Of a DNA stretch of 38,664 nt, positions 8,959 through 37,012 are shown piece after piece. The stretch's first letter is position 1. The number at the start of each line of letters is the position of its first letter. This DNA is from Candidatus Falkowbacteria bacterium (GTDB lineage: Bacteria; Patescibacteriota; Patescibacteriia; Patescibacteriales; Patescibacteriaceae), in contig JBAXSE010000013.1 of NCBI GenBank assembly GCA_037130845.1, forward strand, positions 1-38,664, written 5' to 3'. The notes beneath the pieces are model-generated. The model was not told the DNA's origin. It searched no databases and was given only the letters and a program-made list of their open reading frames with translations. A program made the translations under genes and the position numbers.

Positions 8959-9258
8959 GTGGCAAATGATATTTACTACATCGCCGGCATCTTGCTGGCG
9001 CTCAACCTGATCGCCTTCGCGGCGATGATGGTAGACAAGATCAAGTCGGCCAAGACAGGCAAGCGGCGCATTTCCGAAGGCATGCTGTTCTTTATGGCAA
9101 CGCTCTTCGGCAGCGTCGGCGTCTATGCCGGCATGTTCGCCTTCCGCCACAAGACCAGGAAATGGTATTTTTTGATCGGCATTCCGCTCTTGATGATCGA
9201 GAACGCCGCCTTGCTCTATCTGCTTTATTTATTTTTGAGTGGAACGGTTATTTGGTAA
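8959..9258 (+). CDS. DUF1294 family membrane protein
   Basis: Signature VDK.KA..G..RISE..L...A..GG..G...GM..FRHKT.K..F is present (MVDKIKSAKTGKRRISEGMLFF...FRHKTRKWYF). GTG start is tentative. Confidence 0.75.
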   Translation: MANDIYYIAGILLALNLIAFAAMMVDKIKSAKTGKRRISEGMLFFMATLFGSVGVYAGMFAFRHKTRKWYFLIGIPLLMIENAALLYLLYLFLSGTVIW

Positions 9259-9273
9259 TATTCTATGGACTAG

Positions 9274-9301
9274 AGGCGCCCAAGCAAAGGCGTCTTTTTT
9301 G
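9274..9301 (+). terminator. Rho-independent terminator
   Basis: Stem aggcgcc (9274-9280) / ggcgtct (9289-9295) with one G-U pair, followed by tttttt. Confidence 0.5.
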
Positions 9302-9432
9302 TTAAACTTAGGCTTTTTTAGCCAAGGTGGAACATTTGACAAAGCGCCGATATAATACTATTTTAAGCATGTTCTTTGAAAAATAAATATAATTAAGAAA
9401 ACATAAATTTAAGATAAATTTTGGAGGTAGTC

Positions 9433-9876
9433 ATGTATTACGTATTCGTCGGAGTGGTGGTTGTATCCGGTGTATTCTACCACATATCACAAAAAGAAGT
9501 GCCCAAGTCGGTTAACCCGATGGCGTCGTTGGCCTTTAGCTATATCATAGCTTTGATTGGTTCTATAATTCTTTTGCCGGTTGTCTCCAGATTATCAGAA
9601 GCAAGTAAGTCTTTGAATCTGGACAAATTGACGCAGGCGGTAAATTGGCCCAGTTTCTTTGTCGGGGTCACGATAATCGGTATAGAAATCGGCGTAATGA
9701 TGGCCTATCGTTATGGCGGTAAGATGAATAATACGTCGTTGATTATTTATTCGACGATTGCGGCTGTTTTGTTTTTGGTAGGAGTCTATCATTATAATGA
9801 AACAATCTCCTGGCAAAAATTATTTGGCGCAGTATTATGTTTTGTCGGCCTCGTAGTAATGGCGTTAAGTAAATAA
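9433..9876 (+). CDS. Small polytopic membrane protein, EamA/DMT-like half transporter (tentative)
   Basis: ATG9433 lies 5 nt after GGAGG (9423-9427). 147 aa with 4-5 hydrophobic helices. Family assignment is by general resemblance only. Confidence 0.5.
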   Translation: MYYVFVGVVVVSGVFYHISQKEVPKSVNPMASLAFSYIIALIGSIILLPVVSRLSEASKSLNLDKLTQAVNWPSFFVGVTIIGIEIGVMMAYRYGGKMNNTSLIIYSTIAAVLFLVGVYHYNETISWQKLFGAVLCFVGLVVMALSK

Positions 9877-9898
9877 AGATCACGTTCAAATAATGTTT

Positions 9899-9930
9899 AG
9901 CCCCTAGAAATAGGGGCTTTATTTTATTTT
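9899..9930 (+). terminator. Rho-independent terminator
   Basis: Stem agcccct (9899-9905) / aggggct (9912-9918), 6-nt loop, then tttatttta. Confidence 0.6.
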
Positions 9931-9968
9931 GGCTTATGTTAGCCAAATTCAGAGAGAGCCAACCTCGA

Positions 9969-9997
9969 TTGACAAAAGGCCCGGAAAGTCCTAGATT
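9969..9997 (+). promoter_or_regulatory. Sigma70-type promoter upstream of hisS
   Basis: TTGACA (9969-9974), 17-nt spacer, TAGATT (9992-9997). Confidence 0.5.
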
Positions 9998-10083
9998 AAA
10001 GAGTTAAATGCACCTTAACAACAAAAAATCCTTAACCATAAATAAAATATTGGCAATTTGTATAACTATTTCGGAGATTAATA

Positions 10084-11499
10084 ATGGCAGAAGGCAACAA
10101 AGCCAAGGGCATAGTCAAACCTGAGCGTCCGGGAGGATTCCTGGATTTTTTACCGGCCGATTATCTGGCGCGGGAAAGAATCTTTGGCATCATAGCAAAA
10201 GTTTTCCGGTCTTATGGCTACGATCCGATCGAAACACCGATGGTGGAATTTGCAAAATCCCTTGTCGGCGAAGACGAAACATCGAAAAATATATTCTATA
10301 TTTCCAACAAGAATAAGAATATGACGCAAGAAGGGCAGTTGGGTTTGCGTTTTGACCACACTGTACCCTTTGCCAGATTGTTAGCGGCTAATCCATACAA
10401 CGCCGACACTAAAGAAGGCATTAAACTGCCTTGGCGCCGTATGGTGGTTGGTCCGGTGTTCAGGGGCGAAAGTCCGCAGAAAGGGCGTTACCGCCAGTTC
10501 TATCAATTCGATGTCGATATAGTCGGAGTTTCTTCCATGATGGCAGATGCTGAGATTGTGGCTATAATCTATGAAACTCTGACAGCTTTAGGGCTTGATG
10601 ATTTTGTAATCAAGATTAATAATCGCAAGTTATTAAATGGCTTGGCGGAATTATTGGATGTCCACGATAGGGCGGAAGTAAATCGAGATGATATTACCAA
10701 GGCTATTTTTAGAATCTTGGATAAATTGGATAAAATCGGCCTGGATCAGGTATTGTTTGAATTAACGCAAGAGCCTGACAGCATCTTCGATCCGGCGCCT
10801 AATTTATCGTCAGAGGCTGGAGAAAAGATCAAATCTTTTATTAATATCGATGGTGACAACTACGAGAAATTAATAAAAGCTAAAACAGTCTTTGCGGGTC
10901 TAAGTATCGCCGAAGACGGCATAAAGGAATTAGAGCAGATCTTAGGATTTACAGCTGATCTCGGCGTTCCGAGCGATAAGGTGTTAGTTGACTTTGGCGT
11001 TGCTCGCGGGCTGGATTATTATACCGGTCCGGTGATGGAGACAAGTTTGCTGACTGCGCCGGAATTCGGCAGTGTTTTCTCGGGAGGCCGTTACAACAAT
11101 CTGATGGAACGTTTTACAGGACAAGAATTGCCCGCGGTCGGCGCGTCTATCGGAGTCGATAGATTATTTGCCGCCTTAAGGCAGCTTGGTTTGTTGGACG
11201 TTAGTCGGGCTACCATTACCGATGTTTTGGTAATGCGCATTGCGGACAATCTTGATAGTGAATATCTGGAAATCGCCAAGATAATCAGGCGCTGTGGCCT
11301 GAATACGGAGGTTTCTATGCTTGAAGACAGGACTTTTAAGGCTCAATTCAATTTTGCGTTGGGTCGTGGCGTTAAATACGCCATTATTTACGGAGAAAAT
11401 GAATCAATCAAGCGCACAATCCAGATTAAGAATCTAAGCACTCGAAAACAGACAGAAATTAATTTTTCCGATTTGGAAATATATTTTAATAATATTTAA
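10084..11499 (+). CDS. hisS: Histidyl-tRNA synthetase (class II), of the LRFD.TVPFAR / FYQFDVD sequence type
   Basis: Motifs YDPIETPMVEF, LRFDHTVPFARLLA, GPVFRGESPQKGRYRQFYQFDVDIVG (motif 2), GLDYYTG, GGRYNNL, VGASIGVDRL (motif 3). C-terminal anticodon-binding-like domain (DVLVM...YAIIYGENE). SD GGAG lies 9 nt upstream. Confidence 0.9.
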   Translation: MAEGNKAKGIVKPERPGGFLDFLPADYLARERIFGIIAKVFRSYGYDPIETPMVEFAKSLVGEDETSKNIFYISNKNKNMTQEGQLGLRFDHTVPFARLLAANPYNADTKEGIKLPWRRMVVGPVFRGESPQKGRYRQFYQFDVDIVGVSSMMADAEIVAIIYETLTALGLDDFVIKINNRKLLNGLAELLDVHDRAEVNRDDITKAIFRILDKLDKIGLDQVLFELTQEPDSIFDPAPNLSSEAGEKIKSFINIDGDNYEKLIKAKTVFAGLSIAEDGIKELEQILGFTADLGVPSDKVLVDFGVARGLDYYTGPVMETSLLTAPEFGSVFSGGRYNNLMERFTGQELPAVGASIGVDRLFAALRQLGLLDVSRATITDVLVMRIADNLDSEYLEIAKIIRRCGLNTEVSMLEDRTFKAQFNFALGRGVKYAIIYGENESIKRTIQIKNLSTRKQTEINFSDLEIYFNNI

Positions 11500-11513
11500 T
11501 TTAGGAGTCAGAC

Positions 11514-13169
11514 ATGGAAAGGACTATTAGTCTAGATGGTCGCACTTTAACGCTGCAAGACGTTGTCTTGATAGCTCGCGGCTATCGCGGCCAAGACGGA
11601 CATCAACATTATCCATATGTTGAGTTATCCGAACAAGCACAAGCAGATATTGGCAGTTTTCGCCACGGCCTTGATCTTCGGATCGCGGCTGGCGATATTA
11701 TCTACGGTGTCAATACCGGTTGCGGTGTCAAGAAAGGCACTATCATTGATCAGAAAGAGATCGATGCCTATCAGGCTCATTATATTCCGGCGCATTGTGT
11801 CGGTTATGGCGAACCTTTTGATGAAGAAATTGTCAGAGCCGCTCTTGTTTTGCGGGTCAACTCTTTCGCCTTGGGAAATTCCGGAATCAGGCTGGAAACC
11901 TGCAATAAATTGTTGGAAATCTACAACAAGGGCGTGATTCCCTTTGTACCCGAACAGGGTTCGGTGGGCTCCAGCGGTGATTTGTGCCCGTTGGCTCATG
12001 TTGCGGCAGTCATTACTGGCGTCGAAGGACAACAAGCATTCTACCACGGCAAATTGATGCAAGCGGCAGAAGCTTTGTCGCTTGCCGGCATCGATCCGAT
12101 AGTATTAAAAGCCAAAGAAGCGATGGGCTTGACTAACGGCGCAACCTTAACTTTAGCCATGGGCTTGCTTGCTATTCATGATAGCAAAAAATTAATAGCG
12201 TATTCCCATATGGCGGCAGCATTGTCGCTTGAGGCGATCCGCGGTGAAAAAAACGCCTTTGACCCCAGAATCCACGAGGCCAGAAAGAACCAGCATAGCG
12301 CCAGAGTAGCGAAAATCATTCGTGACCTGACCAGCGGTTCAGACCGCATGACTACGTCAGCTAGAGATGTCTGTTTGACGGATGAGAAGAAATCGAAGAA
12401 ATATCAGGACGATGCTAAATCAAGGCCGACTCCTCGGGTCCAGGATGCCTATTCTTTCCGCGCCTATGCCCAGGTGGCAGGACCGGTGGTTAAAGCATTC
12501 GAGTATGCCGAAGAAGTCTTTTTGTCGGAAATGAATGCAGCTACAGATAATCCATTGATCTTTAAGAGCGGATTCGGGGAGAATGAAAGGTTTGAAGCGA
12601 TATCCGGTGGCAATTTTCATGGCGAACCGTTGGGTCAAGCAGCTGATTTTCTTAAGATTGCCATCCAGCAGTTGGCCAACATTTCCGATCGGCGTTTCTA
12701 TGCCTTGACGATGTCCACGACCAGCTATGGCTTGCCGGATGATTTGGCTGGAGCAATTAATCGCGATCTGAATACGGGATTAATGATCCTCCAATACACG
12801 ACAGCTGCTTTGGTATCAGAGAATAAAGCATTATGTTATCCTTCGGTTATCGATTCTATTCCGACTTCTGCAAACCAAGAAGATTATGTCAGTATGTCAA
12901 CTATCGGCGCGCGTAATCTGCGCAAGGTGATAAAAAATACTTATGGCGTTATCGGTGCCGAATTATTGGCTGCTGCCCAGGGCATATCACTGACCGAAGA
13001 CCAGCTAAGGCCGCTCGAGCTTGATGGCTTGGGAAGAGAAACTACCTTTGTTTATAAGAAGGTCCGCCAGGTAGTCGCCGCAATGTATGAAGATCGTTAT
13101 ATCCACAAAGATTTCAAGGCTTTGGTCGATTTCATGATAAAGTCTGATCCTCAGGATTTCTTACCATAG
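11514..13169 (+). CDS. hutH: Histidine ammonia-lyase-like MIO enzyme (aromatic amino acid lyase family)
   Basis: Collinear with HAL: YGVNTGCG, GSVGSSGDLCPLAH (MIO loop), LTNG, DPRIHEAR, QDAYSFR, TDNPL, SGGNFHGEP, TAALVSENK, PTSANQEDYVSM. AGGAG lies 6 nt before the ATG, which is only 14 nt after the hisS stop. Confidence 0.85.
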   Translation: MERTISLDGRTLTLQDVVLIARGYRGQDGHQHYPYVELSEQAQADIGSFRHGLDLRIAAGDIIYGVNTGCGVKKGTIIDQKEIDAYQAHYIPAHCVGYGEPFDEEIVRAALVLRVNSFALGNSGIRLETCNKLLEIYNKGVIPFVPEQGSVGSSGDLCPLAHVAAVITGVEGQQAFYHGKLMQAAEALSLAGIDPIVLKAKEAMGLTNGATLTLAMGLLAIHDSKKLIAYSHMAAALSLEAIRGEKNAFDPRIHEARKNQHSARVAKIIRDLTSGSDRMTTSARDVCLTDEKKSKKYQDDAKSRPTPRVQDAYSFRAYAQVAGPVVKAFEYAEEVFLSEMNAATDNPLIFKSGFGENERFEAISGGNFHGEPLGQAADFLKIAIQQLANISDRRFYALTMSTTSYGLPDDLAGAINRDLNTGLMILQYTTAALVSENKALCYPSVIDSIPTSANQEDYVSMSTIGARNLRKVIKNTYGVIGAELLAAAQGISLTEDQLRPLELDGLGRETTFVYKKVRQVVAAMYEDRYIHKDFKALVDFMIKSDPQDFLP

Positions 13170-13186
13170 TTCTGTATAGCTATCTT

Positions 13187-13218
13187 GCCGACCTTCGGAC
13201 CTGGGTCGGCTTTTTTTT
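13187..13218 (+). terminator. Rho-independent terminator after the hisS/HAL-like operon
   Basis: Stem gccgacc (13187-13193) / ggtcggc (13204-13210), followed by tttttttt. Confidence 0.7.
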
Positions 13219-13251
13219 GGCTATTCGTAGTAAAATTGGATTGGCTGGCAT

Positions 13252-13279
13252 TTGACAAAACTAGGAATCATGCTAGAAT
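13252..13279 (+). promoter_or_regulatory. Sigma70-type promoter for the GNAT/tRNA-His unit
   Basis: TTGACA (13252-13257), 16-nt spacer, TAGAAT (13274-13279). Confidence 0.5.
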
Positions 13280-13326
13280 ATTGAACAAAATAAAAATATC
13301 AGTTCATTAATAAAAAGGGTTAAAAG

Positions 13327-13995
13327 ATGCAAAAAAATACCTGCACTTATAGGAAAATAAATAACCTTGATAATGCCGCAGAAGCTGAAAAGTTAGCGCG
13401 TTGCTATCAGGAGGTTTTTGCCGGTTATCCTTGGAATGAATACAAGAAATGCCCTGATTGCGGGGTGAGGTGGGGCAAAGAAGATGCGCCGGAAGATGGA
13501 CGTTGTTCAAAATGTGATGCTACTCCCGTTCTTGTTGATTTCTGGGCGAAGGAGGATGTTATAAATGATTTCCAAAAACAATTACAAAGCTCCAGCGGCG
13601 TGTTGTGTGTTGCGGTTAATTCCAGAGACGAGATTACGGGTTTCTGTTCCGGTTACGAAACTACTCCCGAAGAATTGGAAAAGCATTTGCAGCTTCCTGA
13701 ATTGGCCAAATGGTTGCGTTGTTATTTTCCCAATGGTGTTAGATTCGGTTATCAAGATGAGATCGGCGTTCTCGATTCGTATCGAGGGCAGAAGATTGCT
13801 ACCGAACTTTTCAAGAAAAGAATGGAAGATTTTAAGGCAAGTGGTTTGGATATAGCTGTATTAAGAACCAAGACTATGCCTCCGACCATAACCTTTAAAT
13901 GGTACCCTCGATTGGGTTATAGTGTCATCCAATGTTATCATGATGATGATTGCCGTGTAATTATGGCGACAGAAATCAAGAGTATTCAGTTGTAG
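13327..13995 (+). CDS. GNAT-family N-acyltransferase with an inserted CxxC...CxxC zinc ribbon
   Basis: GNAT core YQDEIGVLDSYRGQKIATELFKKRMEDFKASGLDIAVLRT (acetyl-CoA motif-A-like R-G-Q-x-I-A) plus ...RLGYSVI. Zn ribbon CPDCG-x15-CSKC at aa 42-63. Confidence 0.7.
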   Translation: MQKNTCTYRKINNLDNAAEAEKLARCYQEVFAGYPWNEYKKCPDCGVRWGKEDAPEDGRCSKCDATPVLVDFWAKEDVINDFQKQLQSSSGVLCVAVNSRDEITGFCSGYETTPEELEKHLQLPELAKWLRCYFPNGVRFGYQDEIGVLDSYRGQKIATELFKKRMEDFKASGLDIAVLRTKTMPPTITFKWYPRLGYSVIQCYHDDDCRVIMATEIKSIQL

Positions 13996-14019
13996 AACAG
14001 TTGAGCTTTACATGCCGAT

Positions 14020-14094
14020 GGACGCGTAGCTCAGTTGGCCCAGAGCAATGGATTGTGGCTCCATTTGTCACGGGTTCGATTCCCGTCGCGTCCA
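14020..14094 (+). tRNA. tRNA-His (anticodon GUG), discriminator A73, no genomically encoded G-1, no encoded CCA
   Basis: Hand-folded cloverleaf. Acceptor GGACGCG (14020-26) pairs with CGCGTCC (14087-93). U8A9. D arm GCTC/AGTTGGCCCA/GAGC. Anticodon arm ATGGA / TT-GTG-GC / TCCAT with GTG at 14055-57. 5-nt variable loop. T arm ACGGG/TTCGATT/CCCGT. Position -1 is T14019 and position 73 is A14094. Confidence 0.9.
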
Positions 14095-14098
14095 CGAA

Positions 14099-14126
14099 CG
14101 GCAATTATAATGATTGCCGTTTTTTA
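14099..14126 (+). terminator. Rho-independent terminator directly after tRNA-His
   Basis: Stem cggcaat (14099-14105) / attgccg (14113-14119), followed by ttttttatt. Confidence 0.7.
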
Positions 14127-14162
14127 TTTACAAAAATGTCAGTTTGAGTCAGAATAGGATAT

Positions 14163-14975
14163 ATGAAATATGATGAGACGATAATTAAGATATCGGGCGC
14201 TAAGCCGGGCAAGACGCTGGCTGTTTTTGCCGGTGTCCATGGCAATGAAACCACGGGCATCAAGGCTCTTAAGCAAGTCGTAAAAAACATTAAAATAGAC
14301 GCTGGTACAGTATATTTTGTTTTGGCTAATCCGGAGGCGATTGGAAAGAATGTCAGGCAAGTTGATAAGAATTTAAATCGATGCTTTTTTCTCGGCAATA
14401 AAGGCAGGACGGCAGAGGATAAGCGCGCTAGAGAGCTGATGAAGCTGTTGGATAAATGCGAAGCGTTGTTAGATTTGCATGCCAGTAACAACCCCAATTC
14501 AATACCGTTCATCATCTGTGAAAAACACGCATTTCAAGCTGCCAGCATCTTTGATTTCAAAATTGTATCACATGGCTGGGATGCTTTTGAGCCCGGCGCG
14601 ACTGATGGCTACATGAATACTCAGCGCAAAATAGCCTTGTGTCTGGAGTGCGGTTCTGTACACGATAATAACGAACCATTAGCCGTTAAATCAATTATGC
14701 AGTTTCTTAAATTTTTTGGCGCAATTAAAGATGCAACTGTTAAGTATAATCATAAGAAACAAAAAATGATTAAGATTGTCAAAGCCGGTTATAAGAAATC
14801 GGAGCAGCTTGCCTTTGCCAAAAATTATAATGATTTTGCCAAGTTAAAACCCGGAGAAATATACGCCACGGATGGACCGAATAAATATAAAGCGGGGACG
14901 AACCAATGCATTATCTTTCCAAATATAAATAAAAAAATTGGCGAAGAAATATTCTTGATTGGCAGAACGATGTAA
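14163..14975 (+). CDS. Succinylglutamate desuccinylase/aspartoacylase (AstE/AspA) family zinc deacylase
   Basis: Family signature LAVFAGVHGNETTG (H-x-x-E zinc ligands) and LLDLHAS (third His ligand). Size is typical at 270 aa. Confidence 0.75.
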   Translation: MKYDETIIKISGAKPGKTLAVFAGVHGNETTGIKALKQVVKNIKIDAGTVYFVLANPEAIGKNVRQVDKNLNRCFFLGNKGRTAEDKRARELMKLLDKCEALLDLHASNNPNSIPFIICEKHAFQAASIFDFKIVSHGWDAFEPGATDGYMNTQRKIALCLECGSVHDNNEPLAVKSIMQFLKFFGAIKDATVKYNHKKQKMIKIVKAGYKKSEQLAFAKNYNDFAKLKPGEIYATDGPNKYKAGTNQCIIFPNINKKIGEEIFLIGRTM

Positions 14976-15035
14976 TGATGATTTTGACTGGTGTTATTTT
15001 CTGTGATTTGCTAAGATTGGTTATGGAATTTAATT

Positions 15036-16115
15036 ATGACTATTACAACTTTTAATAAGGCCTTGTTATTGATTGCCGTCTGCTTGTTGCTGGCGGTATT
15101 TTTGCCTTCTGCCCACGCGGTGCATGCGCAGGTCGCCAGTGATAATGTTACGGCTGCCGGCTTTCAGGCCGATTTGGAGCTGGGCGACGAGGGGGCGGAT
15201 GTGTTGGCTTTGCAGAAGCTGCTAATCAAATCGGGGTATCTGAAGATTACCAAGCCGAGCCCTGTCTATGGTTACAAGCCTAACGGCTACTATGGCGAGC
15301 AGACCAAGGCGGCTGTGGCTAAGTGGCAGAAGTCCAAGGGCATTAAGGCCTCTGGCGTCTTTGGCCCTATTTCGCGCGCCAAGGCTAACCTGGGCTATCT
15401 GGCGATTGCCAATAGGGAAACCGCGGCTACTTCCAGCGGCACCAGCACACCCGCAGTCAGCAACGGCCGCCTTATAGCGGCTAATACTTGCACTGCTTGG
15501 ACATACACCGATTGGTCGGCGTGTTCGTCCTGGGGCAACCAGACGCGCAGTATTGTCTTTGCTTATCCGTCCGGTTGCGCAGGCGGCGCCTTTGTGTTGG
15601 CGCAGGCTTGCGGTGCTAATGCGACTTCTACCGCTACTTCAACCGCGGAGACTGTTGTTGTAAGCGCGCAGCCTTCGATCGGCACTTTTCATCCTAGCCA
15701 GCAAAGTTTAACCTTGGATGATCGCTTGTTAAGCGTTGCTTTTTCCGAAAATGGGCTCAAGGTCGGTTTGACCTGCAAGCCTTGGGTCAGCAAGGTAGTG
15801 GCTGTGGCTACCGACCAGACTCTTGCCTTGCCCACGACCAGTGATAATAATTATACTTGGAAAAACAATGCCAATGGCCGAGTACAGACCAGGGATCACT
15901 CTATACAGAACACCGGCCGCGGTGACATTATCCAGATGAACATGCTGAAGAATGATCTGCCGCATACGGCGATTGTAGTGTCTGCTACACCTGCAGGCAT
16001 GGTTTGGATCCATAGCAATTGGCAGACCAAGAAGACTGTCAGCGTCGACTTTATCACCTATGCATATTTTAATGCCACCTTCGGTCCGGATTATTCCGTC
16101 TATCATCTCCAGTAG
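15036..16115 (+). CDS. Secreted protein with a peptidoglycan-binding (PG_binding_1-like) domain and a C-terminal CHAP/amidase-like domain
   Basis: Signal peptide ...LPSAHAVHA|Q. PG-binding repeat GDEGADVLALQKLLIKSGYL...YGEQTKAAVAKWQKSKGIKASG. C-terminal candidate Cys (LTCKPWVSKV) and His (GDIIQM...LPHTAIVV) are spaced as in CHAP domains. Confidence 0.55.
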   Translation: MTITTFNKALLLIAVCLLLAVFLPSAHAVHAQVASDNVTAAGFQADLELGDEGADVLALQKLLIKSGYLKITKPSPVYGYKPNGYYGEQTKAAVAKWQKSKGIKASGVFGPISRAKANLGYLAIANRETAATSSGTSTPAVSNGRLIAANTCTAWTYTDWSACSSWGNQTRSIVFAYPSGCAGGAFVLAQACGANATSTATSTAETVVVSAQPSIGTFHPSQQSLTLDDRLLSVAFSENGLKVGLTCKPWVSKVVAVATDQTLALPTTSDNNYTWKNNANGRVQTRDHSIQNTGRGDIIQMNMLKNDLPHTAIVVSATPAGMVWIHSNWQTKKTVSVDFITYAYFNATFGPDYSVYHLQ

Positions 16116-24069: not shown

Positions 24070-26706
24070 ATGAATGTTGCACAATTAAACACAGAAAAGC
24101 GTCTTGCTACGGCTATTATGCCTTGGAAAGACATCAGCATCGGTTCGGCCGCTATTGTTTCTAGCACTATCGCTAATAGCGGTATTTTTACTTCTACCCA
24201 AACCTTTAAGATTCAAGTTCCGCTTAGTGTTAACGAAAGCGTAACCAGGGATTATGACGGTTATCGCTTGCCAATGGACAAGCTGGACGAAGACGGAGTA
24301 ATCCGAGTCGGCGAGAGCGTCGCCTTGGGTGATGTGCTGGTTGCCATGATTGAATATGATCCACGAGAGTATCAGCCGGAAGAAAAATTGCTCAAAGCAA
24401 TTTTTGGCGACGGTGCTACTAACGTGACCGATCGTTCGGTTACCATGTCTTTCCCTGATCCTGCTATAGTCTATAGCGTCGAAAAAAAACTCGAAGGCAA
24501 AAAAAAGCTGGTGACTGTTTATCTGGCCTTTAAACGTAAACTACGTTTGGGTGATATTCTGGTCGATAGCAAAGGTAACCAAGCAGTTGTCTCGGCTGTT
24601 GTTGCTGATAATGAAATGCCTTATCTGAAAAGCTCGCAAACCAGAGCTCAAATAGTGGTTACGCCGCTCACTGATTGCGGCGAAACGATGGTAGATCATT
24701 TGGATAAACAAAGGCTGGTTGTGGTATATGATACCGAAGATCCCAAGTTTATCCTGATAGCGCCGCCGCTTGATAGGCCAAGCAAAAATAAGAAGTGGTT
24801 ATGCAAAGATGAAGAAGCGCGTTTTGGGGCTATCGCTTGGAAAAAATTAGAACTATTGTCCGGTCAAAAGAATATCGGTTATGGCGTTCAAAGTAGATTG
24901 CGCAACGATGCCCAATTGGTGGATGGCATCAAGATCCGCCAAGAATTTATCACAAGCCTGTTGCATTACAATCTGCCGGCTGTAGCCAGAGAATTTTTGA
25001 CCGTCAAGTCTGACGATGCCAAAGGCTACGGCGATACTGTACAAGCTATTATTAATGGATGGTCTTTGCCCGCAGCGGCTGCTCCGGCTTCGCTAAAGCG
25101 CTATGAAGCGACGATCAAGGCAATGGCCTTGACTATCGGAGTCGATAACGGCAGTAGGCAAGTCGGCTTACTTGATGGCTATAATTATCCCAACCAGGAT
25201 TTGCCAGGTATTGGCGTTTCTTTGTGGGTAACTCCGCAATCAGAGATTTTGGCTCAGTCCCACGGTGAATTGACCGGTGTTGATTATATGGATGATGCTA
25301 TCAAGCAGGCTCAAGGGAAAAAGAAAACAGACAAGATAGAAGTCGGTTTGTTCAGCCAACGCATTTTCGGCCCTCTACGGGATTATGAATGCGCTTGCGG
25401 TAAATACAAGCGAGTCCGCTATAGCGGCATCGTCTGCGATCGTTGCGGTGTCTTGGTAGCGCAAAGCTCTGTGCGCAAAGAACGTTTCGGCCATATCAAC
25501 CTGGCTTTGCCTTGCGTGCATCCTTTGTTCGAAAAAGCAGTTGCCGAGTTATATAAGTCGATCGATTACACGAACACTCCGCAATATTTTGAAGAGCTGA
25601 TCGAAAAAAACTTTGATCTAGAAAAAGCCGATTATCTTTTTGAATGTTCCGAGATAATGAAAAAGTTATCGTTGCCCGAACAGCAGATTCTTAATGTCAT
25701 CCCGGTCATGCCGGCCGGTTGGCGTTCCGATTGGATGTCTTATACTAGCAGTTGGACAATGGATTTAAATTATCTATATAGCAGATTAATGACTCGTAAC
25801 AATCGATTGACTCGATTAATCGACATCAAAGCTCCTTGGATGATTATCTCCAATGAATATCGAATGCTACAAGAGGCTTTGTCTGAATTATTTAATTGCA
25901 CTCATTTGGGGAGTGAGACTCCGCCTGTCGGATTGATCCATAGCCTGCAAGCAGCCGGTCGCAATCTTTATGACAAAAAGGTTAGTTATTCCGGACGTGC
26001 GCTGGTTATCCCAGATGACCGCCTGGCAATCGACGAATGCGTTTTGCCTAGAACTCTGGCAGTCAGATTGTTTGAGCCTTTTGTGCTTCAGCGCTTGATG
26101 GCATCGCCGCCGGAAACTCCTTGCGACCCGATTTGGGACGATTCTTATCCGGATCTGCCTCCTATCTTGGCAGATGTAGTAGTAGATATTGCCGCTGGCA
26201 ATAAGACTACAGTCGATCTAAAGAAGATTGATGAAGATGAAGCTAGAGCTTATCCGGGCTATACCTACAAGACGGCTAGTGGAATGGTTAAAAATAACCA
26301 CCCCGAAGCATTGGAAAAGCTGGAAGCGATTGTTGGCGATAGGGTTGTCCTATTGAGCTCTGTCAGTCAGATAGAATTTGCCGGTTTTTGTCCACGTTTA
26401 AGTAACGAAGAAGTCATCAGACTTCATCCGCAGGCTATTAAGCTTCTTGGTATTTCTCTGGGTAAGGCTGGCAAGGCGTTAGTCTATCTACCCTTGTCTG
26501 ATGATGCTCAAGCGGAAGTCAAAGGTGTTATGTGCGGCCAAGAATGGTCGTATGTTCCTCAGACTCCGAGCGTTGGATATAGCTCTGTTCTTAATAGTAA
26601 TCTCAAGCATCTTGTTTCTAATCCTTGGTTGGATCAACCGGAGCCGGAAACCTGCAAATGGTTGCTATCCTTAAATGATCGATTTTTGCTCAATTATAGC
26701 AAATAG
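24070..26706 (+). CDS. RNA polymerase beta (C-terminal third) / beta-prime (N-terminal third) fusion-like protein lacking catalytic motifs (pseudo-RNAP)
   Basis: 878-aa ORF, AAGGAA SD. Beta-like blocks: PEEKLLKAIFGDGATNVTDRSV, VYLAFKRKLRLGDILVDSKGNQAVVS..EMPY, FLTVKSDD. Beta-prime-like blocks: GLFSQRIFGPLRDYECACGKYKRVRYSGIVCDRCGV, VIPVMPAGWR, LYSRLMTRNNRLTRLIDIKAP..ISNEYRMLQEAL, VSYSGRALVI, LPRTLAVRLFEPF. There is no NADFDGD; the aligned segment is LGISLGKAGKALVYLPL. Confidence 0.85.
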   Translation: MNVAQLNTEKRLATAIMPWKDISIGSAAIVSSTIANSGIFTSTQTFKIQVPLSVNESVTRDYDGYRLPMDKLDEDGVIRVGESVALGDVLVAMIEYDPREYQPEEKLLKAIFGDGATNVTDRSVTMSFPDPAIVYSVEKKLEGKKKLVTVYLAFKRKLRLGDILVDSKGNQAVVSAVVADNEMPYLKSSQTRAQIVVTPLTDCGETMVDHLDKQRLVVVYDTEDPKFILIAPPLDRPSKNKKWLCKDEEARFGAIAWKKLELLSGQKNIGYGVQSRLRNDAQLVDGIKIRQEFITSLLHYNLPAVAREFLTVKSDDAKGYGDTVQAIINGWSLPAAAAPASLKRYEATIKAMALTIGVDNGSRQVGLLDGYNYPNQDLPGIGVSLWVTPQSEILAQSHGELTGVDYMDDAIKQAQGKKKTDKIEVGLFSQRIFGPLRDYECACGKYKRVRYSGIVCDRCGVLVAQSSVRKERFGHINLALPCVHPLFEKAVAELYKSIDYTNTPQYFEELIEKNFDLEKADYLFECSEIMKKLSLPEQQILNVIPVMPAGWRSDWMSYTSSWTMDLNYLYSRLMTRNNRLTRLIDIKAPWMIISNEYRMLQEALSELFNCTHLGSETPPVGLIHSLQAAGRNLYDKKVSYSGRALVIPDDRLAIDECVLPRTLAVRLFEPFVLQRLMASPPETPCDPIWDDSYPDLPPILADVVVDIAAGNKTTVDLKKIDEDEARAYPGYTYKTASGMVKNNHPEALEKLEAIVGDRVVLLSSVSQIEFAGFCPRLSNEEVIRLHPQAIKLLGISLGKAGKALVYLPLSDDAQAEVKGVMCGQEWSYVPQTPSVGYSSVLNSNLKHLVSNPWLDQPEPETCKWLLSLNDRFLLNYSK

Positions 26707-33014: not shown

Positions 33015-33129
33015 AGTAAAAATGCTATTGACATCGCTTAGGTAAAGTGTTTAGATAGGCTCATTATTACGATAATAAAAAGCTAATAATAGCATAAAAT
33101 TGTTCATTAATATATTTGCGGAGGATAAA

Positions 33130-33807
33130 ATGGAAAGGTCTAATAGAGTAATTATCCCGGGTTTAGGGACTATTCTCAGGCTTAAGATCGCTAGCATGCA
33201 TGTCGATGCGGAAAACGGCTTTGCGCCCCTGTGTCCGTTGGAACTGCCGGTACCGGACGGCCAGAATATTGTACACGAGCTGATAGCTCAAAATAACTTC
33301 GCCCGCTATCTGGTAGGCAGCAAAGAAGGACACTCGGACCATCCCCAATGGGCGGCCACCGAGAGCGAGCCGGCCTTTACGCCGATGACGGGCTATCCCA
33401 ATATGAATCGGCGTTGGAATGTGCATTGCGCTATCGGTACCTATGGCGGACAATTGCTGGACGGACTGCCGCCGATTAGCGGCTATGATTTTATGGTCTG
33501 GAAGGGCATTGAAGATGATATGCATCCCTATGGGGCTTGCTATCACGACCTGGCCAAGAAGCTGTCTACCGGGCTGATAGAATGGCTGACCTGCCAGAGA
33601 ATCTCGACAGTGATAGTGGGTGGTCTGGCGACTGATTACTGCGTGCTGGAAACAGTCTTGGAATTATTAGAGGCTGGTTTTGAAGTAGTAGTCAATCTGG
33701 GAGCTTGCCGCGGTGTCGCAACAGACACGACAGACACAGCTATCAAAAAGATGATTAAGCACGGCGCGATTATTATCCAGTCCAGCCAAGAACTAACGCT
33801 TGTCTAA
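33130..33807 (+). CDS. pncA: Nicotinamidase (isochorismatase-fold, PncA)
   Basis: ATG33130 lies 4 nt after GGAGGA. Catalytic Asp region VDAENGF, Lys in MVWKG, Cys in VGGLATDYCV. His-rich metal-site segment EGHSDHPQW. Confidence 0.8.
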   Translation: MERSNRVIIPGLGTILRLKIASMHVDAENGFAPLCPLELPVPDGQNIVHELIAQNNFARYLVGSKEGHSDHPQWAATESEPAFTPMTGYPNMNRRWNVHCAIGTYGGQLLDGLPPISGYDFMVWKGIEDDMHPYGACYHDLAKKLSTGLIEWLTCQRISTVIVGGLATDYCVLETVLELLEAGFEVVVNLGACRGVATDTTDTAIKKMIKHGAIIIQSSQELTLV

Positions 33808-33947
33808 GGGCACGATCCATCGCAAAGTCAAACAGGGGAAAGCCAGCCTTTCCCCCTACTCAAGTGGCGCTGAAAGTTTCGGCGCCAGCTGTCTAGGCAG
33901 TTCTTTAAAATTGAATAATCAAATTGTTATATTTATCAGGAGTAGAC

Positions 33948-35222
33948 ATGTATTTACCATCAAGTTTGTTCAGCTACAAGCAGGACAAAGGCATCATCCA
34001 AACGCTCATGGATGTGGACTTCTATAAGTTCACTATGGGGCAATTGGCCTTTAAGTATTATCGCAATGTGCAAGTGACCTTCAAGTTCACCAATCGCAAT
34101 AAGAATGTTAAGCTGGCCAAGATTATCGATATCGCCCGTTTGCGTGAAGAGCTGGACCATTGCCGTACCCTAAGCTTCAAGAATTCGGAGATCCATTATT
34201 TGCGCGGTACTAATGAGTATCAGCATAGGATGTTCGAGGAAGATTACTTGCAGTTCTTGGCGACCTTGCGTTTGCCAGATTATGAGCTGGAATTTGTGGG
34301 AGATGAAATTTGGCTGACCTTTACGGGCTTTTGGCCGGAAGTGACATTGTGGGAAACCCTCGCCTTGTCGATTATCAACGAGCTCTATGTTCGTGCCATG
34401 TTAGGCAAGGATACTAGCGCTTGGGAACGCAACTACGCTGTCGGAGTCACCAGGTTGTATGAGAAGATTGAAAGCTTGCGCGAATATCCGGAATTAGTCT
34501 TCACTGATTTCTGTACCCGTCGCCGTTTTAACGGCCCGTGGCAGGGATACTGCATCGAGACGACCGTGCGAGAATTACCCGGGCAGTTCCTGGGCACTTC
34601 CAACGTGATGTTCTCTCAGCAATTGGCAGACCACAATTTCGTCCCTATGGGCACATCCGCTCATGAACGTGATATGGTGTTGGCTGCTTTGCAGTTCAAT
34701 AGCGATGTGGGCATCCTTAATAGCCTCTGGCAGAGCGCGGATGAATGGTACAATCAATATGGCGAAGGCCTGTCTATCTTTTTGCCCGATACCTTCGGCA
34801 CCGATGCCTTTTTCGCCCAATTCGGGTCGGCTCGAGCCAAAAAATGGAAGGGCTCGCGGCAAGATTCCGCTGATCCATATGCCTACGGCAGAAAGTTGAT
34901 CAAGTATTATGAAGGCTATGAGATTGATCCACGAAATAAAATGTGCATCTTTAGCGATGGCTTGACGCACGAATTGATGATTTGTTTGCATATATATTTC
35001 CATCGGCAGCTCAAAGATGGTTATGGCTACGGCACGCATTTCGGCAACGACTTGCTGGTTCCGCCTTTGCCCATTGTGGTCAAAGTCGACAGCGTCAACG
35101 GCAATCCGGCTGTCAAGCTTTCTGACAATCTGGCCAAAGGCATGGGATTGCAGACTGAACAAGAGCGTTACAAAAGGATATTTGGCTACACGCGTGATTT
35201 CAGACAAGAATGTGTTGTATAA
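33948..35222 (+). CDS. pncB: Nicotinate phosphoribosyltransferase
   Basis: ATG33948 lies 5 nt after CAGGAG. N-terminal DVDFYKFTMGQ, FTDFCTRRR, MGTSAHERDM (phospho-His loop), SDGL. Length 424 aa. Confidence 0.85.
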   Translation: MYLPSSLFSYKQDKGIIQTLMDVDFYKFTMGQLAFKYYRNVQVTFKFTNRNKNVKLAKIIDIARLREELDHCRTLSFKNSEIHYLRGTNEYQHRMFEEDYLQFLATLRLPDYELEFVGDEIWLTFTGFWPEVTLWETLALSIINELYVRAMLGKDTSAWERNYAVGVTRLYEKIESLREYPELVFTDFCTRRRFNGPWQGYCIETTVRELPGQFLGTSNVMFSQQLADHNFVPMGTSAHERDMVLAALQFNSDVGILNSLWQSADEWYNQYGEGLSIFLPDTFGTDAFFAQFGSARAKKWKGSRQDSADPYAYGRKLIKYYEGYEIDPRNKMCIFSDGLTHELMICLHIYFHRQLKDGYGYGTHFGNDLLVPPLPIVVKVDSVNGNPAVKLSDNLAKGMGLQTEQERYKRIFGYTRDFRQECVV

Positions 35223-35240
35223 TTTAACTCGGAGTTTAGA

Positions 35241-36149: not shown

Positions 36150-36264
36150 GCAAATTGATTATTCACAGTCGACGGCTAACACGACCGTCGACTATTTATC
36201 TAAGCGATCAAACTCTTGATCCTTTGGATAAGTAAAGTACTTTGAAAATTTATAAGGAACAATC

Positions 36265-37002: not shown

Positions 37003-37012
37003 GAGTGCAGTA

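What the first reader, a model, noticed from the sequence alone, without database searches (positions are those of the whole stretch)
10084..14975. Histidine-themed neighbourhood: hisS/HAL-like operon, GNAT + tRNA-His unit, AstE/AspA deacylase
Five consecutive + strand features all plausibly touch histidine or acyl-amino acids.
- hisS (10084-11499) and a histidine ammonia-lyase-like MIO enzyme (11514-13169) are separated by only 14 nt, with an SD and no intervening terminator. They look co-transcribed.
- After a strong terminator and a new promoter, a GNAT acyltransferase and tRNA-His form one terminator-bounded unit (13252-14126).
- The next gene is an AstE/AspA-family Zn deacylase. That family hydrolyses N-acyl amino acids such as N-succinylglutamate and N-acetylaspartate.

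No other Hut pathway genes (urocanase, imidazolonepropionase, formiminoglutamase) are in the window. The HAL-like enzyme therefore does not sit in a classical hut operon, and coupling it transcriptionally to the histidine-charging enzyme is unusual.

One reading is a small module that balances free histidine between charging, deamination and reversible N-acylation. This is inference from adjacency only.
Basis: inference. Interest (0 to 1): 0.6.

Follow-up and report, generated by a model that had tools for sequence, protein, structure and literature searches.

The report
Conserved histidine hub: hisS, tRNA-His, lyase
In this candidate-phyla-radiation bacterium and its relatives, the gene for the enzyme that loads histidine onto its tRNA, the tRNA-His gene and the enzyme that starts histidine breakdown stay together through genome rearrangements, often with an uncharacterised acetyltransferase/deacylase pair, which points to an undescribed module for sharing scavenged histidine between protein synthesis and disposal.

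Summary
All five features exist at the stated coordinates, and the promoters and terminators are as described. The source is a Candidatus Falkowbacteria (Patescibacteria) MAG.

- **Lyase:** keeps every catalytic and histidine-specific residue of P. putida HAL. Only the first MIO residue differs (Ser for Ala).
- **Core linkage:** hisS and tRNA-His sit beside the lyase in 10 of 10 distinct Patescibacteria genomes sampled (52-72% lyase identity). They occur in three arrangements with otherwise different flanks.
- **Coupling:** all seven hisS->lyase junctions are -14 to +14 nt, which fits translational coupling.
- **Other phyla:** hisS lies within 10 kb of HAL in 9 of 80 unrelated loci (about 0.4 expected). 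At least three of these links arose independently.
- **GNAT:** belongs to an unnamed family of about 400 clusters with a zinc-ribbon-like insert. It always sits near a Zn amide hydrolase (AstE, M15 or M20), and next to hisS and tRNA-His even where the lyase is absent.
- **Relatives:** some add a histidine-racemase homologue or urocanase.

Best reading: a histidine acquisition-and-partition locus. The genomic linkage is shown. The flux logic and the GNAT/AstE substrates are inferred.

Novelty: a new variant of a known kind. The one described analogue is argS in the Lactococcus arc cluster.

The parts
9421..9876 (+). Small (151 aa) EamA/DMT-type membrane transporter. Accessory member, in its own transcription unit.
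   Evidence: Pfam EamA 33.9 bits. Orthologue directly upstream of hisS in L088 (57% id) and downstream of hisS in L008: 3/10 clade loci. Terminator-like hairpin 9899-9918 follows it.
9969..9997 (+). Sigma-70-like promoter of the hisS-lyase operon (TTGACA-17-TAGATT), giving a leader of about 85 nt.
   Evidence: 10/12 match. TTGACA-type promoters at a similar distance upstream of hisS in L088-L094. No conserved leader structure and no Rfam T-box.
10084..11499 (+). hisS, histidine--tRNA ligase (471 aa), of the cyanobacterial/Bacteroidetes/eukaryote-like class.
   Evidence: TIGR00442 345 bits above cutoff, plus HGTP_anticodon. Best PDB relatives are Nostoc 3NET (245 bits), 6NHI and human cytoplasmic HisRS (182 bits), against about 105 bits for E. 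coli/Thermus. RGLDYYTG and SGGRYN motifs present (sequence).
11500..11513 (+). 14-nt hisS-lyase junction with Shine-Dalgarno AGGAG (11503-11507) and no terminator.
   Evidence: Equivalent junctions in six relatives have gaps of +12, -14, -11, -11, +2 and -4 nt, with the SD inside or just after the hisS 3' end.
11514..13169 (+). Histidine ammonia-lyase (551 aa). MIO enzyme with an SSG153-155 triad and a clade-specific insertion of about 20 aa.
   Evidence: Lyase_aromatic 505 bits; hutH 474.7 bits. Alignment to P. putida HAL 1GKM: Y53/Y64, H83/H94, N195/N208, Q277/Q310, Y280/Y313, R283/R316, F329/F368, E414/E456 all conserved and invariant in 34 clade members.
13187..13218 (+). Intrinsic terminator of the hisS-lyase operon (8-bp stem with 6 GC pairs, then T8).
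   Evidence: sequence.
13252..13279 (+). Strong extended -10 promoter of the GNAT-tRNA-His unit (TTGACA-16-tgcTAGAAT).
   Evidence: 11/12 match with TG, the best-scoring site in the region.
13327..13995 (+). GNAT acyltransferase (222 aa) of an uncharacterised subfamily with a Cys-rich (C42, C45, C60, C63) zinc-ribbon-like insert.
14020..14094 (+). tRNA-His (GUG), 24 nt after the GNAT stop codon. No encoded G-1 (T at 14019), discriminator A73, no encoded CCA.
   Evidence: A tRNA-His gene lies within the cluster in 10/10 clade loci and in L097 and L098.
14096..14128 (+). Hairpin plus T-run directly abutting the tRNA 3' end. Terminator of the GNAT-tRNA unit.
   Evidence: 12-bp stem. An analogous terminator follows tRNA-His in L094 (sequence).
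14163..14975 (+). AstE/AspA-family Zn-dependent deacylase (270 aa), far from any characterised member.
   Evidence: AstE_AspA_cat 77.4 bits plus hybrid domain 27.3 bits. Below the aspartoacylase and AstE equivalog cutoffs. HGNE, NLNR, LDLH and LECG motifs align with the Zn ligands, carboxylate site and catalytic Glu of Vibrio AstE 2BCO, E 1e-8. Orthologues sit beside the GNAT in L088, L008, L095, L097 and L098.

Best explanation
The locus is a histidine acquisition-and-partition module built around a hub of hisS and tRNA-His.

**Shown**
- hisS and a genuine histidine ammonia-lyase form one tightly coupled operon.
- In every lyase-bearing relative sampled, the lyase stays beside hisS and tRNA-His despite rearrangement.
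- A GNAT/Zn-hydrolase pair attaches to the same hub, with or without the lyase.
- tRNA-His is transcribed as the 3' element of one of these protein-coding units.

**Inferred**
- These bacteria are presumed histidine auxotrophs, from general knowledge of Patescibacteria. They would take up histidine or histidine conjugates.
- Free L-His is then shared between HisRS and HAL. From memory, HisRS has micromolar affinity and HAL has millimolar affinity, so HAL would remove only the surplus as urocanate and ammonia. Where urocanase is present, urocanate goes further down the Hut route.
- Co-transcription and translational coupling would fix the ratio of charging capacity to disposal capacity.
- The GNAT and its partner hydrolase (AstE here; M15 or M20 elsewhere) probably make and break an N-acyl amino acid, most plausibly an N-acyl-histidine or a related conjugate. 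That would buffer or feed the same pool. The histidine racemase homologue in some relatives would do likewise.
For: - Lyase is a real HAL: all catalytic residues and the His-specific H83/E414 are conserved and invariant in the clade.
- hisS is adjacent to the lyase in 10/10 distinct Patescibacteria genomes. These fall into about five architecture groups and three arrangements (hisS->HAL; HAL->tRNA->hisS; divergent), with different flanks.
- tRNA-His is in the cluster in 10/10.
- Junction gaps run from -14 to +14 nt, each with an SD.
- In 80 unrelated HAL loci, hisS is present in 9, TyrRS in 0 and AspRS in 3. All three AspRS hits are Clostridia loci where aspS directly follows hisS, as in the familiar Firmicutes hisS-aspS operon. 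Expected about 0.42; Poisson P about 1e-9.
- In the 84 non-self HAL loci held at that stage (4 clade loci, L008 and 79 others), 11 of 24 tRNA genes are tRNA-His.
- Origins are independent. The L056 and L076 HALs are nearest to Chloroflexota HALs that lack hisS, and the Clostridia loci form a separate clade.
- The GNAT subfamily is in 6/10 clade loci but only 1/80 controls. That control, L016, also has HAL, a racemase-like gene, M15 and a distant AstE/AspA-family gene.
- Entering from the GNAT side finds hisS, tRNA-His, AstE and GNAT together without HAL in L097 and L098, and M20 + GNAT in L099.
- The racemase-like gene's best solved relative is F. nucleatum histidine racemase, and both catalytic Cys are kept (PMC11602996).
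- Urocanase is adjacent in L091 and L093.
- AstE keeps its Zn and catalytic motifs.
- Precedent for a synthetase gene next to catabolism of its own amino acid: argS in the L. lactis arc cluster (PMC7818446, PMC6586332).
Against: - No experiment or expression data; all evidence is genomic.
- The 10 clade genomes are related, and the lyase clade is monophyletic. A single ancestral juxtaposition explains part of the 10/10.
- The substrates of the GNAT and AstE are unknown. Fold searches give only generic GNATs.
- The window's GNAT has Lys where the family consensus has the central Gly of the acyl-CoA motif.
- GNAT and AstE are absent from 4-6 of the 10 clade loci, so they are accessory.
- No histidine-sensing regulator or leader was found in the window.
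- I could not check whether the rest of the Hut pathway, histidine biosynthesis or a second hisS exists elsewhere in these genomes.
- The affinity argument rests on values recalled for other organisms.
Confidence: 0.5

Rival explanations
1. Inherited synteny without functional coupling. hisS + tRNA-His is a stable translation-gene anchor in this Patescibacteria group. The lyase, and separately the GNAT/AstE pair, landed next to it once in an ancestor and has not yet been separated.
For: - The lyase clade is monophyletic.
- Other unrelated genes recur in the same neighbourhoods: a PRT-like gene, LDcluster4, PNP_UDP_1 and AP_endonuc_2. This shows residual synteny.
- hisS-tRNA-His adjacency persists without the lyase.
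Against: - Adjacency survives three different arrangements and changed flanks.
- Overlapping stop/start codons imply selection for co-expression.
- The same hisS/tRNA-His-HAL linkage arose independently in Chloroflexota and Clostridia and is strongly enriched over chance and over TyrRS/AspRS controls.
- L016 links HAL with the GNAT, racemase-like gene, M15 and AstE outside this lineage.
Confidence: 0.17
2. A tRNA-centred system. The GNAT acts on His-tRNA-His, for example by N-acetylating the aminoacyl moiety as the TacT/AtaT/ItaT GNAT toxins do, or it acts on HisRS. The deacylase recycles the released N-acetyl-histidine. The zinc-ribbon insert would bind RNA, which would explain why the GNAT is co-transcribed with tRNA-His and sits by hisS.
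For: - GNAT and tRNA-His share a promoter/terminator-bounded unit in the window and L088, with spacers of 24 and 6 nt.
- A GNAT-containing unit ends in tRNA-His in L094, and probably in L093.
- GNAT + AstE sit beside hisS + tRNA-His without HAL.
- The family-specific CxxC...C insert is conserved.
- An aa-tRNA-acetylating toxin (7BYY) is among the Foldseek hits.
Against: - 7BYY is a weak, non-specific hit (TMq 0.44) among hundreds of GNATs. No Fem or L/F-transferase-like fold appears.
- No antitoxin-like (RHH/DUF1778) neighbour, and no PADLOC hit.
- The constant partner is a hydrolase of free N-acyl amino acids or dipeptides (AstE, M15, M20). That fits small-molecule chemistry better.
- L099 has M20 + GNAT with no hisS or tRNA.
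Confidence: 0.1
3. The lyase is simply the first step of ordinary Hut catabolism for nitrogen or energy, with the remaining hut genes elsewhere in the genome. hisS is nearby because both respond to one histidine-dependent regulator. The GNAT and AstE belong to an unrelated pathway.
For: - Urocanase is adjacent in L091 and L093.
- HutU is within 10 kb in about 22 of the 80 control HAL loci, so HAL is normally Hut-linked.
- A TrpR-like regulator gene recurs in L093-L095 and beside hisS in L038.
Against: - No HutU, HutI or HutG in the window or in 8/10 clade loci.
- No regulator gene and no conserved leader in the window.
- GNAT/AstE association with hisS and with HAL (L016) is too specific for an unrelated pathway.
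Confidence: 0.18
4. The MIO enzyme is not a histidine ammonia-lyase but an aminomutase, or a Tyr/Phe lyase feeding a secondary metabolite.
For: - It scores below the hutH equivalog cutoff (474.7 against 539.15).
- It gives substantial scores to aminomutase and TAL models.
- It has an SSG rather than ASG triad and a clade-specific insertion.
Against: - HAL models score best by about 140 bits.
- H83 and E414, the residues that distinguish HAL from PAL/TAL (from established structural work on P. putida HAL), are conserved and invariant.
- The top PDB hits are all HALs.
- Urocanase is adjacent in two relatives.
Confidence: 0.05

Closest known systems
Classical hut (histidine utilisation) operons (hutH-hutU-hutI-hutG/F, regulated by HutC or HutP)
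   Same: Contains a bona fide HutH-type histidine ammonia-lyase with the full catalytic residue set. Two relatives have hutU next to it.
   Different: - No hutU, hutI, hutG or hutC/hutP in the window or in most relatives.
- The lyase is instead the second cistron of a hisS operon and is linked to tRNA-His.
argS within the Lactococcus lactis arginine deiminase (arc) gene cluster
   Same: An aminoacyl-tRNA synthetase gene sits in the cluster that catabolises its own amino-acid substrate (PMC7818446, PMC6586332).
   Different: - Different amino acid, enzymes and phylum.
- No cognate tRNA gene is reported in that cluster.
- Here the synthetase and the catabolic enzyme are translationally coupled, and the association recurs across phyla.
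Firmicutes hisS-aspS operon with T-box leader
   Same: hisS heads a short operon. The hisS-aspS arrangement is seen beside HAL in the Clostridia control loci, and AspRS-hisS occurs in L098.
   Different: The window has no T-box or other Rfam leader and no conserved leader structure. The downstream cistron is a catabolic enzyme, not another synthetase.
GNAT plus AstE/AspA-family deacetylase pairs, e.g. EctA / DoeB in ectoine metabolism, and NAT8L / aspartoacylase for N-acetylaspartate (from my own knowledge, not tested here)
   Same: A GNAT N-acyltransferase paired with an AstE/AspA-fold Zn hydrolase that removes an N-acyl group from an amino acid. The Zn ligands and catalytic Glu are conserved here.
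   Different: - The sequences are far from all characterised members (below every equivalog cutoff; E 1e-8).
- The GNAT carries a family-specific zinc-ribbon-like insert.
- The substrate is unknown.
- The partner hydrolase is interchangeable: AstE, M15 or M20.
Human histidine N-acetyltransferase HisAT/NAT16
   Different: HisAT is a double-GNAT protein (PMC12219266). The window protein is a single GNAT domain of 222 aa with a Cys-rich insert. It is not a member of that family.
Alpha-proteobacterial and eukaryotic tRNA-His lacking an encoded G-1
   Same: The tRNA-His gene has no encoded G-1 and has discriminator A73. HisRS is of a divergent class.
   Different: - The alpha-proteobacterial type has G1-U72 and U20a (PMC3064791). 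The window has G1-C72.
- The discriminator varies (A, U, C) among close relatives.
- No Thg1-like gene in the window.

Membership tests
Histidine--tRNA ligase (HisRS, TIGR00442) | Score above the curated equivalog cutoff and above the hisZ paralogue model | tested here: met
   345 bits against a cutoff of 286.75. hisZ model 176 bits, below its 271.65 cutoff.
Histidine--tRNA ligase (HisRS, TIGR00442) | C-terminal class IIa anticodon-binding domain | tested here: met
   HGTP_anticodon 36.3 bits, residues 380-465. Full-length alignment to Nostoc HisRS 3NET.
Histidine ammonia-lyase (HutH, TIGR01225) | MIO-forming Ala-Ser-Gly triad | tested here: inconclusive
   The triad is Ser153-Ser154-Gly155. 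The Ser-Gly that form MIO are present, but the first residue is Ser rather than Ala. S154 is nearly invariant and G155 invariant in the clade. MIO formation itself cannot be tested in silico.
Histidine ammonia-lyase (HutH, TIGR01225) | Catalytic and substrate residues Y53, H83, N195, Q277, Y280, R283, F329, E414 (P. putida numbering) | tested here: met
   All conserved in the alignment to 1GKM and invariant in 34 clade sequences.
Histidine ammonia-lyase (HutH, TIGR01225) | Score above the curated equivalog cutoff | tested here: not met
   474.7 bits against a cutoff of 539.15; NF006871 491 against 524. The shortfall fits the clade-specific insertion and divergence. HAL models still lead the next model by about 140 bits.
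Classical hut operon | hutU/hutI/hutG co-located with hutH | tested here: not met
   None in the window. hutU is present in only 2/10 clade loci, against about 22/80 control HAL loci.
GNAT superfamily (acyl-CoA N-acyltransferases) | GNAT fold | tested here: met
GNAT superfamily (acyl-CoA N-acyltransferases) | Q/R-x-x-G-x-G/A acyl-CoA pyrophosphate-binding motif | tested here: inconclusive
   The family consensus YRGxGIAK fits the motif. The window protein and L088 read R153-G-Q-K156-I-A158, with Lys in place of the central Gly.
HisAT/NAT16 histidine N-acetyltransferases | Double-GNAT architecture | tested here: not met
   Single GNAT domain of 222 aa. HisAT architecture is taken from PMC12219266.
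tRNA-dependent GNAT-fold aminoacyl transferases (Fem, L/F-transferase) and aa-tRNA-acetylating GNAT toxins | Specific structural similarity, or a toxin-antitoxin gene pair | tested here: not met
AstE/AspA Zn-dependent deacylases | Catalytic domain plus C-terminal hybrid domain above the Pfam cutoffs | tested here: met
   77.4 bits (cutoff 25) and 27.3 bits (cutoff 25).
AstE/AspA Zn-dependent deacylases | His-Glu-His zinc ligands and catalytic Glu | tested here: met
   H26-x-x-E29, H106 (LDLH) and Glu in LECG align with the corresponding residues of Vibrio AstE 2BCO.
Succinylglutamate desuccinylase (AstE) or aspartoacylase, as specific enzymes | Equivalog-level score | tested here: not met
   Aspartoacylase NF002601 78.9 bits against 180. 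AstE TIGR03242 58.5 bits against 305.65. No ast operon context.
Canonical bacterial tRNA-His | Genome-encoded G-1 paired with C73 | tested here: not met
   T at -1 (14019) and A73 (14094). G at -1 in only 3 of 15 tRNA-His genes of the related CPR loci.
T-box or other known cis-regulatory leader on hisS | Match to an Rfam model, or a conserved leader structure | tested here: not met
   No Rfam hit other than the tRNA at E<=1 in 9000-16000. RNAalifold finds 0 conserved pairs in five leaders.

The most novel reading that the evidence does not exclude
The hub is a self-contained, non-canonical histidine decoding and handling unit. A tRNA-His lacking G-1, a co-evolved eukaryote-like HisRS, and a zinc-ribbon GNAT that acts on His-tRNA-His or on HisRS would tune histidine charging. 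The deacylase would recycle N-acetyl-histidine and HAL would drain the surplus. This would be a new kind of amino-acid-specific translational control module in ultra-small bacteria.
Probability: 0.08. Interest if true: 0.85.

Novelty: new variant of a known kind. Interest (0 to 1): 0.6.

Why it matters
Aminoacyl-tRNA synthetase genes are rarely wired directly to the enzyme that destroys their own substrate. Here the wiring is translationally coupled, includes the cognate tRNA gene, and has arisen more than once.

If the partition model is right, it shows how genome-reduced, auxotrophic Patescibacteria manage a scavenged essential amino acid with a minimal gene set.

It also gives a first functional handle on three poorly understood items:
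- an uncharacterised GNAT family of about 400 clusters with a zinc-ribbon insert;
- a divergent AstE/AspA deacylase;
- the biological role of cofactor-independent histidine racemases, which the HisR paper calls unclear.

The irregular -1/73 positions of tRNA-His in these genomes also raise a testable question about histidine identity rules in this radiation.

Tried and rejected
- **Exact-protein look-up of the lyase.** Returned only copies of the same contig, so it says nothing about conservation.
- **Genome-collection scan with the clade alignment.** The degenerate patterns were too generic. 78 of 80 loci were ordinary HALs, which I reused as the control set.
- **Metagenome scan with the single protein.** One irrelevant locus; the scan was wasted.
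- **Word-indexed homology search for the GNAT.** Found only the protein itself and L088. The exhaustive HMMER search was needed.
- **Source names for GNAT family members.** Only 'GNAT family' or 'RimI-like'.
- **T-box or riboswitch on hisS.** Rejected.
- **Defence-system reading.** Rejected.
- **'The divergent HisRS is a special paralogue travelling with HAL'.** Rejected. It is the normal cyanobacterial/Bacteroidetes/eukaryote-like class.
- **AstE as a HutG replacement (N-formyl- or formimino-glutamate hydrolase).** Considered, but AstE tracks the GNAT and never co-occurs with urocanase in the loci sampled. Not favoured.
- **HisAT/NAT16 homology.** Rejected on architecture.
- **Precomputed CntK_N Pfam hit.** Not reproduced in my Pfam copy, but supported by the PDB sequence search.
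- **Literature searches** for hisS + hutH, HAL + HisRS + operon, tRNA-His G-1 in Patescibacteria, and HAL in CPR found nothing relevant.

Full report
**1. Observation**

The window comes from a contig that NCBI annotates as a Candidatus Falkowbacteria MAG (Patescibacteria). Identical copies occur in JGI, ENA and Logan metagenome assemblies.
- hisS, 10084-11499.
- An aromatic-amino-acid-lyase-family gene, 11514-13169.
- A GNAT gene, 13327-13995.
- tRNA-His(GTG), 14020-14094.
- An AstE/AspA-family gene, 14163-14975.

The transcription signals are also as described:
- A 14-nt hisS-lyase spacer with AGGAG and no terminator.
- A GC-rich hairpin plus T8 at 13187-13218.
- The best promoter match in the region at 13252-13279.
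- Only 24 nt between the GNAT stop codon and the tRNA.
- A hairpin plus T-run abutting the tRNA 3' end.

No other Hut gene, Thg1 gene or regulator gene is present in the 38.6-kb window.

**2. What the parts are**

*HisRS.* It passes the curated hisS equivalog cutoff and has the anticodon-binding domain. It belongs to the class shared by cyanobacteria, Bacteroidetes, archaea and eukaryotes. It scores 245 bits to Nostoc 3NET and 182 bits to human cytoplasmic HisRS, but only about 105 bits to the E. coli/Thermus enzymes.

*Lyase.* It falls just below the hutH equivalog cutoff. It nevertheless aligns to P. putida HAL with Y53, H83, N195, Q277, Y280, R283, F329 and E414 all conserved. These positions are invariant in 34 clade members. 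The MIO triad is Ser-Ser-Gly instead of Ala-Ser-Gly, and there is a clade-specific insertion of about 20 residues. I conclude it is a genuine histidine ammonia-lyase.

*AstE/AspA protein.* It retains the His-Glu-His zinc ligands, the NLNR carboxylate motif and the catalytic Glu. It is far below every equivalog cutoff.

*GNAT.* It belongs to a compact, unnamed family:
- About 403 representatives among 1.84 billion proteins.
- Members are 200-250 aa with a conserved CY(R/Q)xVFAxxPWNEWxKCxxC...C...DFWP signature. This is a zinc-ribbon-like insert in a single GNAT domain.
- A confident model (pLDDT 94.9) matches only generic acyl-CoA-dependent GNATs.
- It is not the double-GNAT HisAT/NAT16 (PMC12219266).

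**3. Neighbourhood conservation, the key test**

A clade of about 46 Patescibacteria lyases at 52-72% identity stands apart from ordinary HALs at 47% or less. I obtained the genomic context for nine further distinct members.

| Loci | Arrangement |
|---|---|
| L088, L089, L090, L091, L093, L094 | hisS immediately upstream of the lyase |
| L008, L096 | hisS immediately downstream, with two tRNA-His genes in between |
| L095 | hisS divergent from the lyase |

- Including the window, that is 10 of 10, in about five architecture groups with otherwise different flanking genes.
- The seven hisS->lyase junctions have gaps of -14 to +14 nt. An SD lies inside or just after the hisS 3' end, and L094 has an ATGA overlap.
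- A tRNA-His gene lies within each of the ten clusters. It is usually the 3'-terminal element of either the hisS unit or the GNAT-containing unit, followed by a terminator.

**4. Beyond the clade**

The 80 control HAL loci come from other phyla.
- Genuine hisS, passing TIGR00442 in every case, lies within 10 kb in 9 of them.
- CPR TyrRS and AspRS probes find 0 and 3. All three AspRS hits are Clostridia loci where aspS directly follows hisS, as in the familiar Firmicutes hisS-aspS operon.
- For a single-copy gene in a 3-Mb genome the expectation is about 0.42 loci, giving Poisson P of about 1e-9.
- In the 84 non-self HAL loci held at that stage (4 clade loci, L008 and 79 others), 11 of the 24 tRNA genes are tRNA-His.

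Examples of the arrangement elsewhere:
- tRNA-His, hisS, HAL in a Chitinophagaceae MAG (L024).
- HAL, hisS, tRNA-His in an Anaerolineae MAG (L076).
- 2x tRNA-His, hisS, HAL in another Anaerolineales genome (L056).

The L056 and L076 HALs are closest to Chloroflexota HALs whose loci lack hisS. The Clostridia loci form their own clade. The linkage therefore arose several times, which argues for function over inheritance.

**5. The accessory layer**

Custom profiles run over all ORFs of all loci give these counts among the ten clade loci:

| Gene | Clade loci |
|---|---|
| GNAT subfamily | 6/10 |
| AstE | 4/10 |
| Small EamA transporter | 3/10 |
| TrpR-like gene | 3/10 |
| Racemase-like gene plus M15 peptidase | 2/10 |
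| Urocanase | 2/10 |

- Among the 80 controls, the GNAT subfamily occurs only in L016. That locus also has HAL, the racemase-like gene, M15 and a distant AstE/AspA-family gene, but no hisS.
- The racemase-like protein's best solved relative is F. nucleatum histidine racemase HisR (E 8e-15 and 2e-16). Both catalytic cysteines are conserved (PMC11602996).
- Entering independently from the GNAT side gives three more contexts:
  - L097: tRNA-His, hisS, AstE, GNAT, without any lyase.
  - L098: hisS, tRNA-His, a PRT-like gene, GNAT, AstE, without any lyase.
  - L099: M20 peptidase, GNAT.

So the GNAT is consistently near a Zn amide hydrolase that acts on a C-terminal amino acid (directly adjacent in all but the window and L095), and the pair is drawn to hisS and tRNA-His in its own right.

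**6. Interpretation**

Shown:
- A conserved, tightly coupled hisS-HAL operon.
- A hub of hisS and tRNA-His to which HAL and a GNAT/hydrolase pair attach.
- Several further histidine-specific neighbours: histidine racemase homologue and urocanase.

Inferred:
- The locus shares scavenged histidine between charging and deamination. HAL acts as a low-affinity overflow, and the GNAT/hydrolase pair (and the racemase where present) buffers or feeds the free L-His pool through N-acyl or D-forms.
- The affinity argument and the presumed auxotrophy rest on general knowledge, not on data from this genome.

No histidine-sensing leader or regulator was found in the window. A defence-system reading has no support.

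**7. Rivals**

- *Pure synteny.* Real residual synteny exists (PRT-like gene, LDcluster4, PNP_UDP_1). It is weakened by the rearrangements, the overlapping junctions, the independent origins and the enrichment statistics.
- *tRNA-centred role for the GNAT* (acting on His-tRNA-His). This fits the co-transcription with tRNA-His and the zinc-ribbon insert. It has no specific structural support, and the GNAT's constant partners are small-molecule hydrolases.
- *Ordinary Hut catabolism with hisS co-regulated.* This remains possible where urocanase is adjacent.
- *A non-histidine substrate for the lyase.* Unlikely, given the conserved residues.

**8. Comparison with what is known, and novelty**

The individual families are known. 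The one described analogue I could document for a synthetase gene embedded in the catabolic cluster for its own amino acid is argS in the L. lactis arc cluster (PMC7818446, PMC6586332). Searches of the paper library found nothing on hisS-hutH linkage, HAL in CPR bacteria, or tRNA-His G-1 in Patescibacteria. I rate it a new variant of a known kind. It is moderately to clearly interesting because the linkage is recurrent, includes the tRNA, and gives testable roles to an unnamed GNAT family and to histidine racemases.

**9. Limits**

- I could not inspect the rest of any genome, so I cannot speak to a second hisS, the full Hut pathway or his biosynthesis.
- The ten clade genomes are not phylogenetically independent.
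- There are no expression or biochemical data.

Noticed in passing
window 14019-14095; L008, L088-L091, L093-L098 tRNA-His genes: The tRNA-His gene has T at -1 and discriminator A73, with G1-C72 and no encoded CCA. Across the related CPR loci, only 3 of 15 tRNA-His genes have G at -1, and the discriminator varies (A, U, C). So the near-universal bacterial G-1:C73 identity element is not systematically encoded. The pattern differs from the alpha-proteobacterial type (A73, G1-U72, U20a; PMC3064791). No Thg1-like gene is in the window. HisRS is of the eukaryote/cyanobacteria-like class.
   Followed up: partly
L089 10787-10861, L090 15679-15753, L091 15115-15189: Three tRNA-His genes share an acceptor stem GGGUUCG/CGUUCCC with two consecutive U.U mismatches (4:69 and 5:68). 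The mismatches are conserved even though the anticodon and T stems differ between the three genomes.
   Followed up: no
window 24070-26706 (+): An 878-aa ORF combines RNA polymerase beta domain 6 (Rpb2_6, 83.7 bits, aa 10-199) with beta-prime domain 1 (Rpb1_1, 78.8 bits, aa 528-613). It is far too short for rpoB or rpoC and looks like a compact fused two-barrel RNAP-like protein.
   Followed up: no
L093 4099-4863, L094 6302-7024, L016 11536-13148: Homologues of F. nucleatum cofactor-independent histidine racemase HisR, with both catalytic Cys conserved. They sit next to the zinc-ribbon GNAT and an M15 (D-Ala-D-Ala dipeptidase-like) peptidase in hisS-HAL clusters. L016 has two tandem copies. 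This may give context for the still-unclear role of HisR.
   Followed up: partly
L093 3678-4007, L094 5902-6225, L095 12504-12818 (-), L038 ~446-800: A small TrpR-family (PF01371, 72.6 bits) gene recurs at the edge of the histidine clusters, and directly upstream of hisS in a Saccharibacteria contig. It is a candidate regulator. It is absent from the window.
   Followed up: no
L089-L091, L096-L098, L008 (e.g. L097 10801-11838, L098 8828-9877): A 290-350-aa protein with a weak phosphoribosyltransferase-domain match recurs next to hisS/tRNA-His or the GNAT, often with an LDcluster4 (SLOG) protein and a PNP_UDP_1 phosphorylase. This may be residual synteny or a further module member.
   Followed up: partly
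L035, L043, L069 (Clostridia/Proteiniclasticum): A canonical hisS-aspS operon lies 2-3 kb upstream of HAL in three related Clostridia loci. This is a separate instance of hisS-HAL proximity with the E. coli/Firmicutes-type HisRS.
   Followed up: partly
L008 (CAZQLY010000001.1): The record is labelled 'uncultured Gammaproteobacteria bacterium'. L008's lyase (57% identical), HisRS and gene content place it inside the Patescibacteria clade, so the label is probably wrong.
   Followed up: no
window 33100-38579: An NAD salvage and synthesis cluster: isochorismatase-family (nicotinamidase-like) gene, NAPRTase, an unknown 302-aa ORF, NAD kinase and NAD synthase.
   Followed up: no
window 9998-10083 and the hisS leaders of L088-L091: The hisS 5' leaders (about 85-100 nt) share a short CtTTAAC(A) sequence motif but no conserved secondary structure and no Rfam match.
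   Followed up: yes
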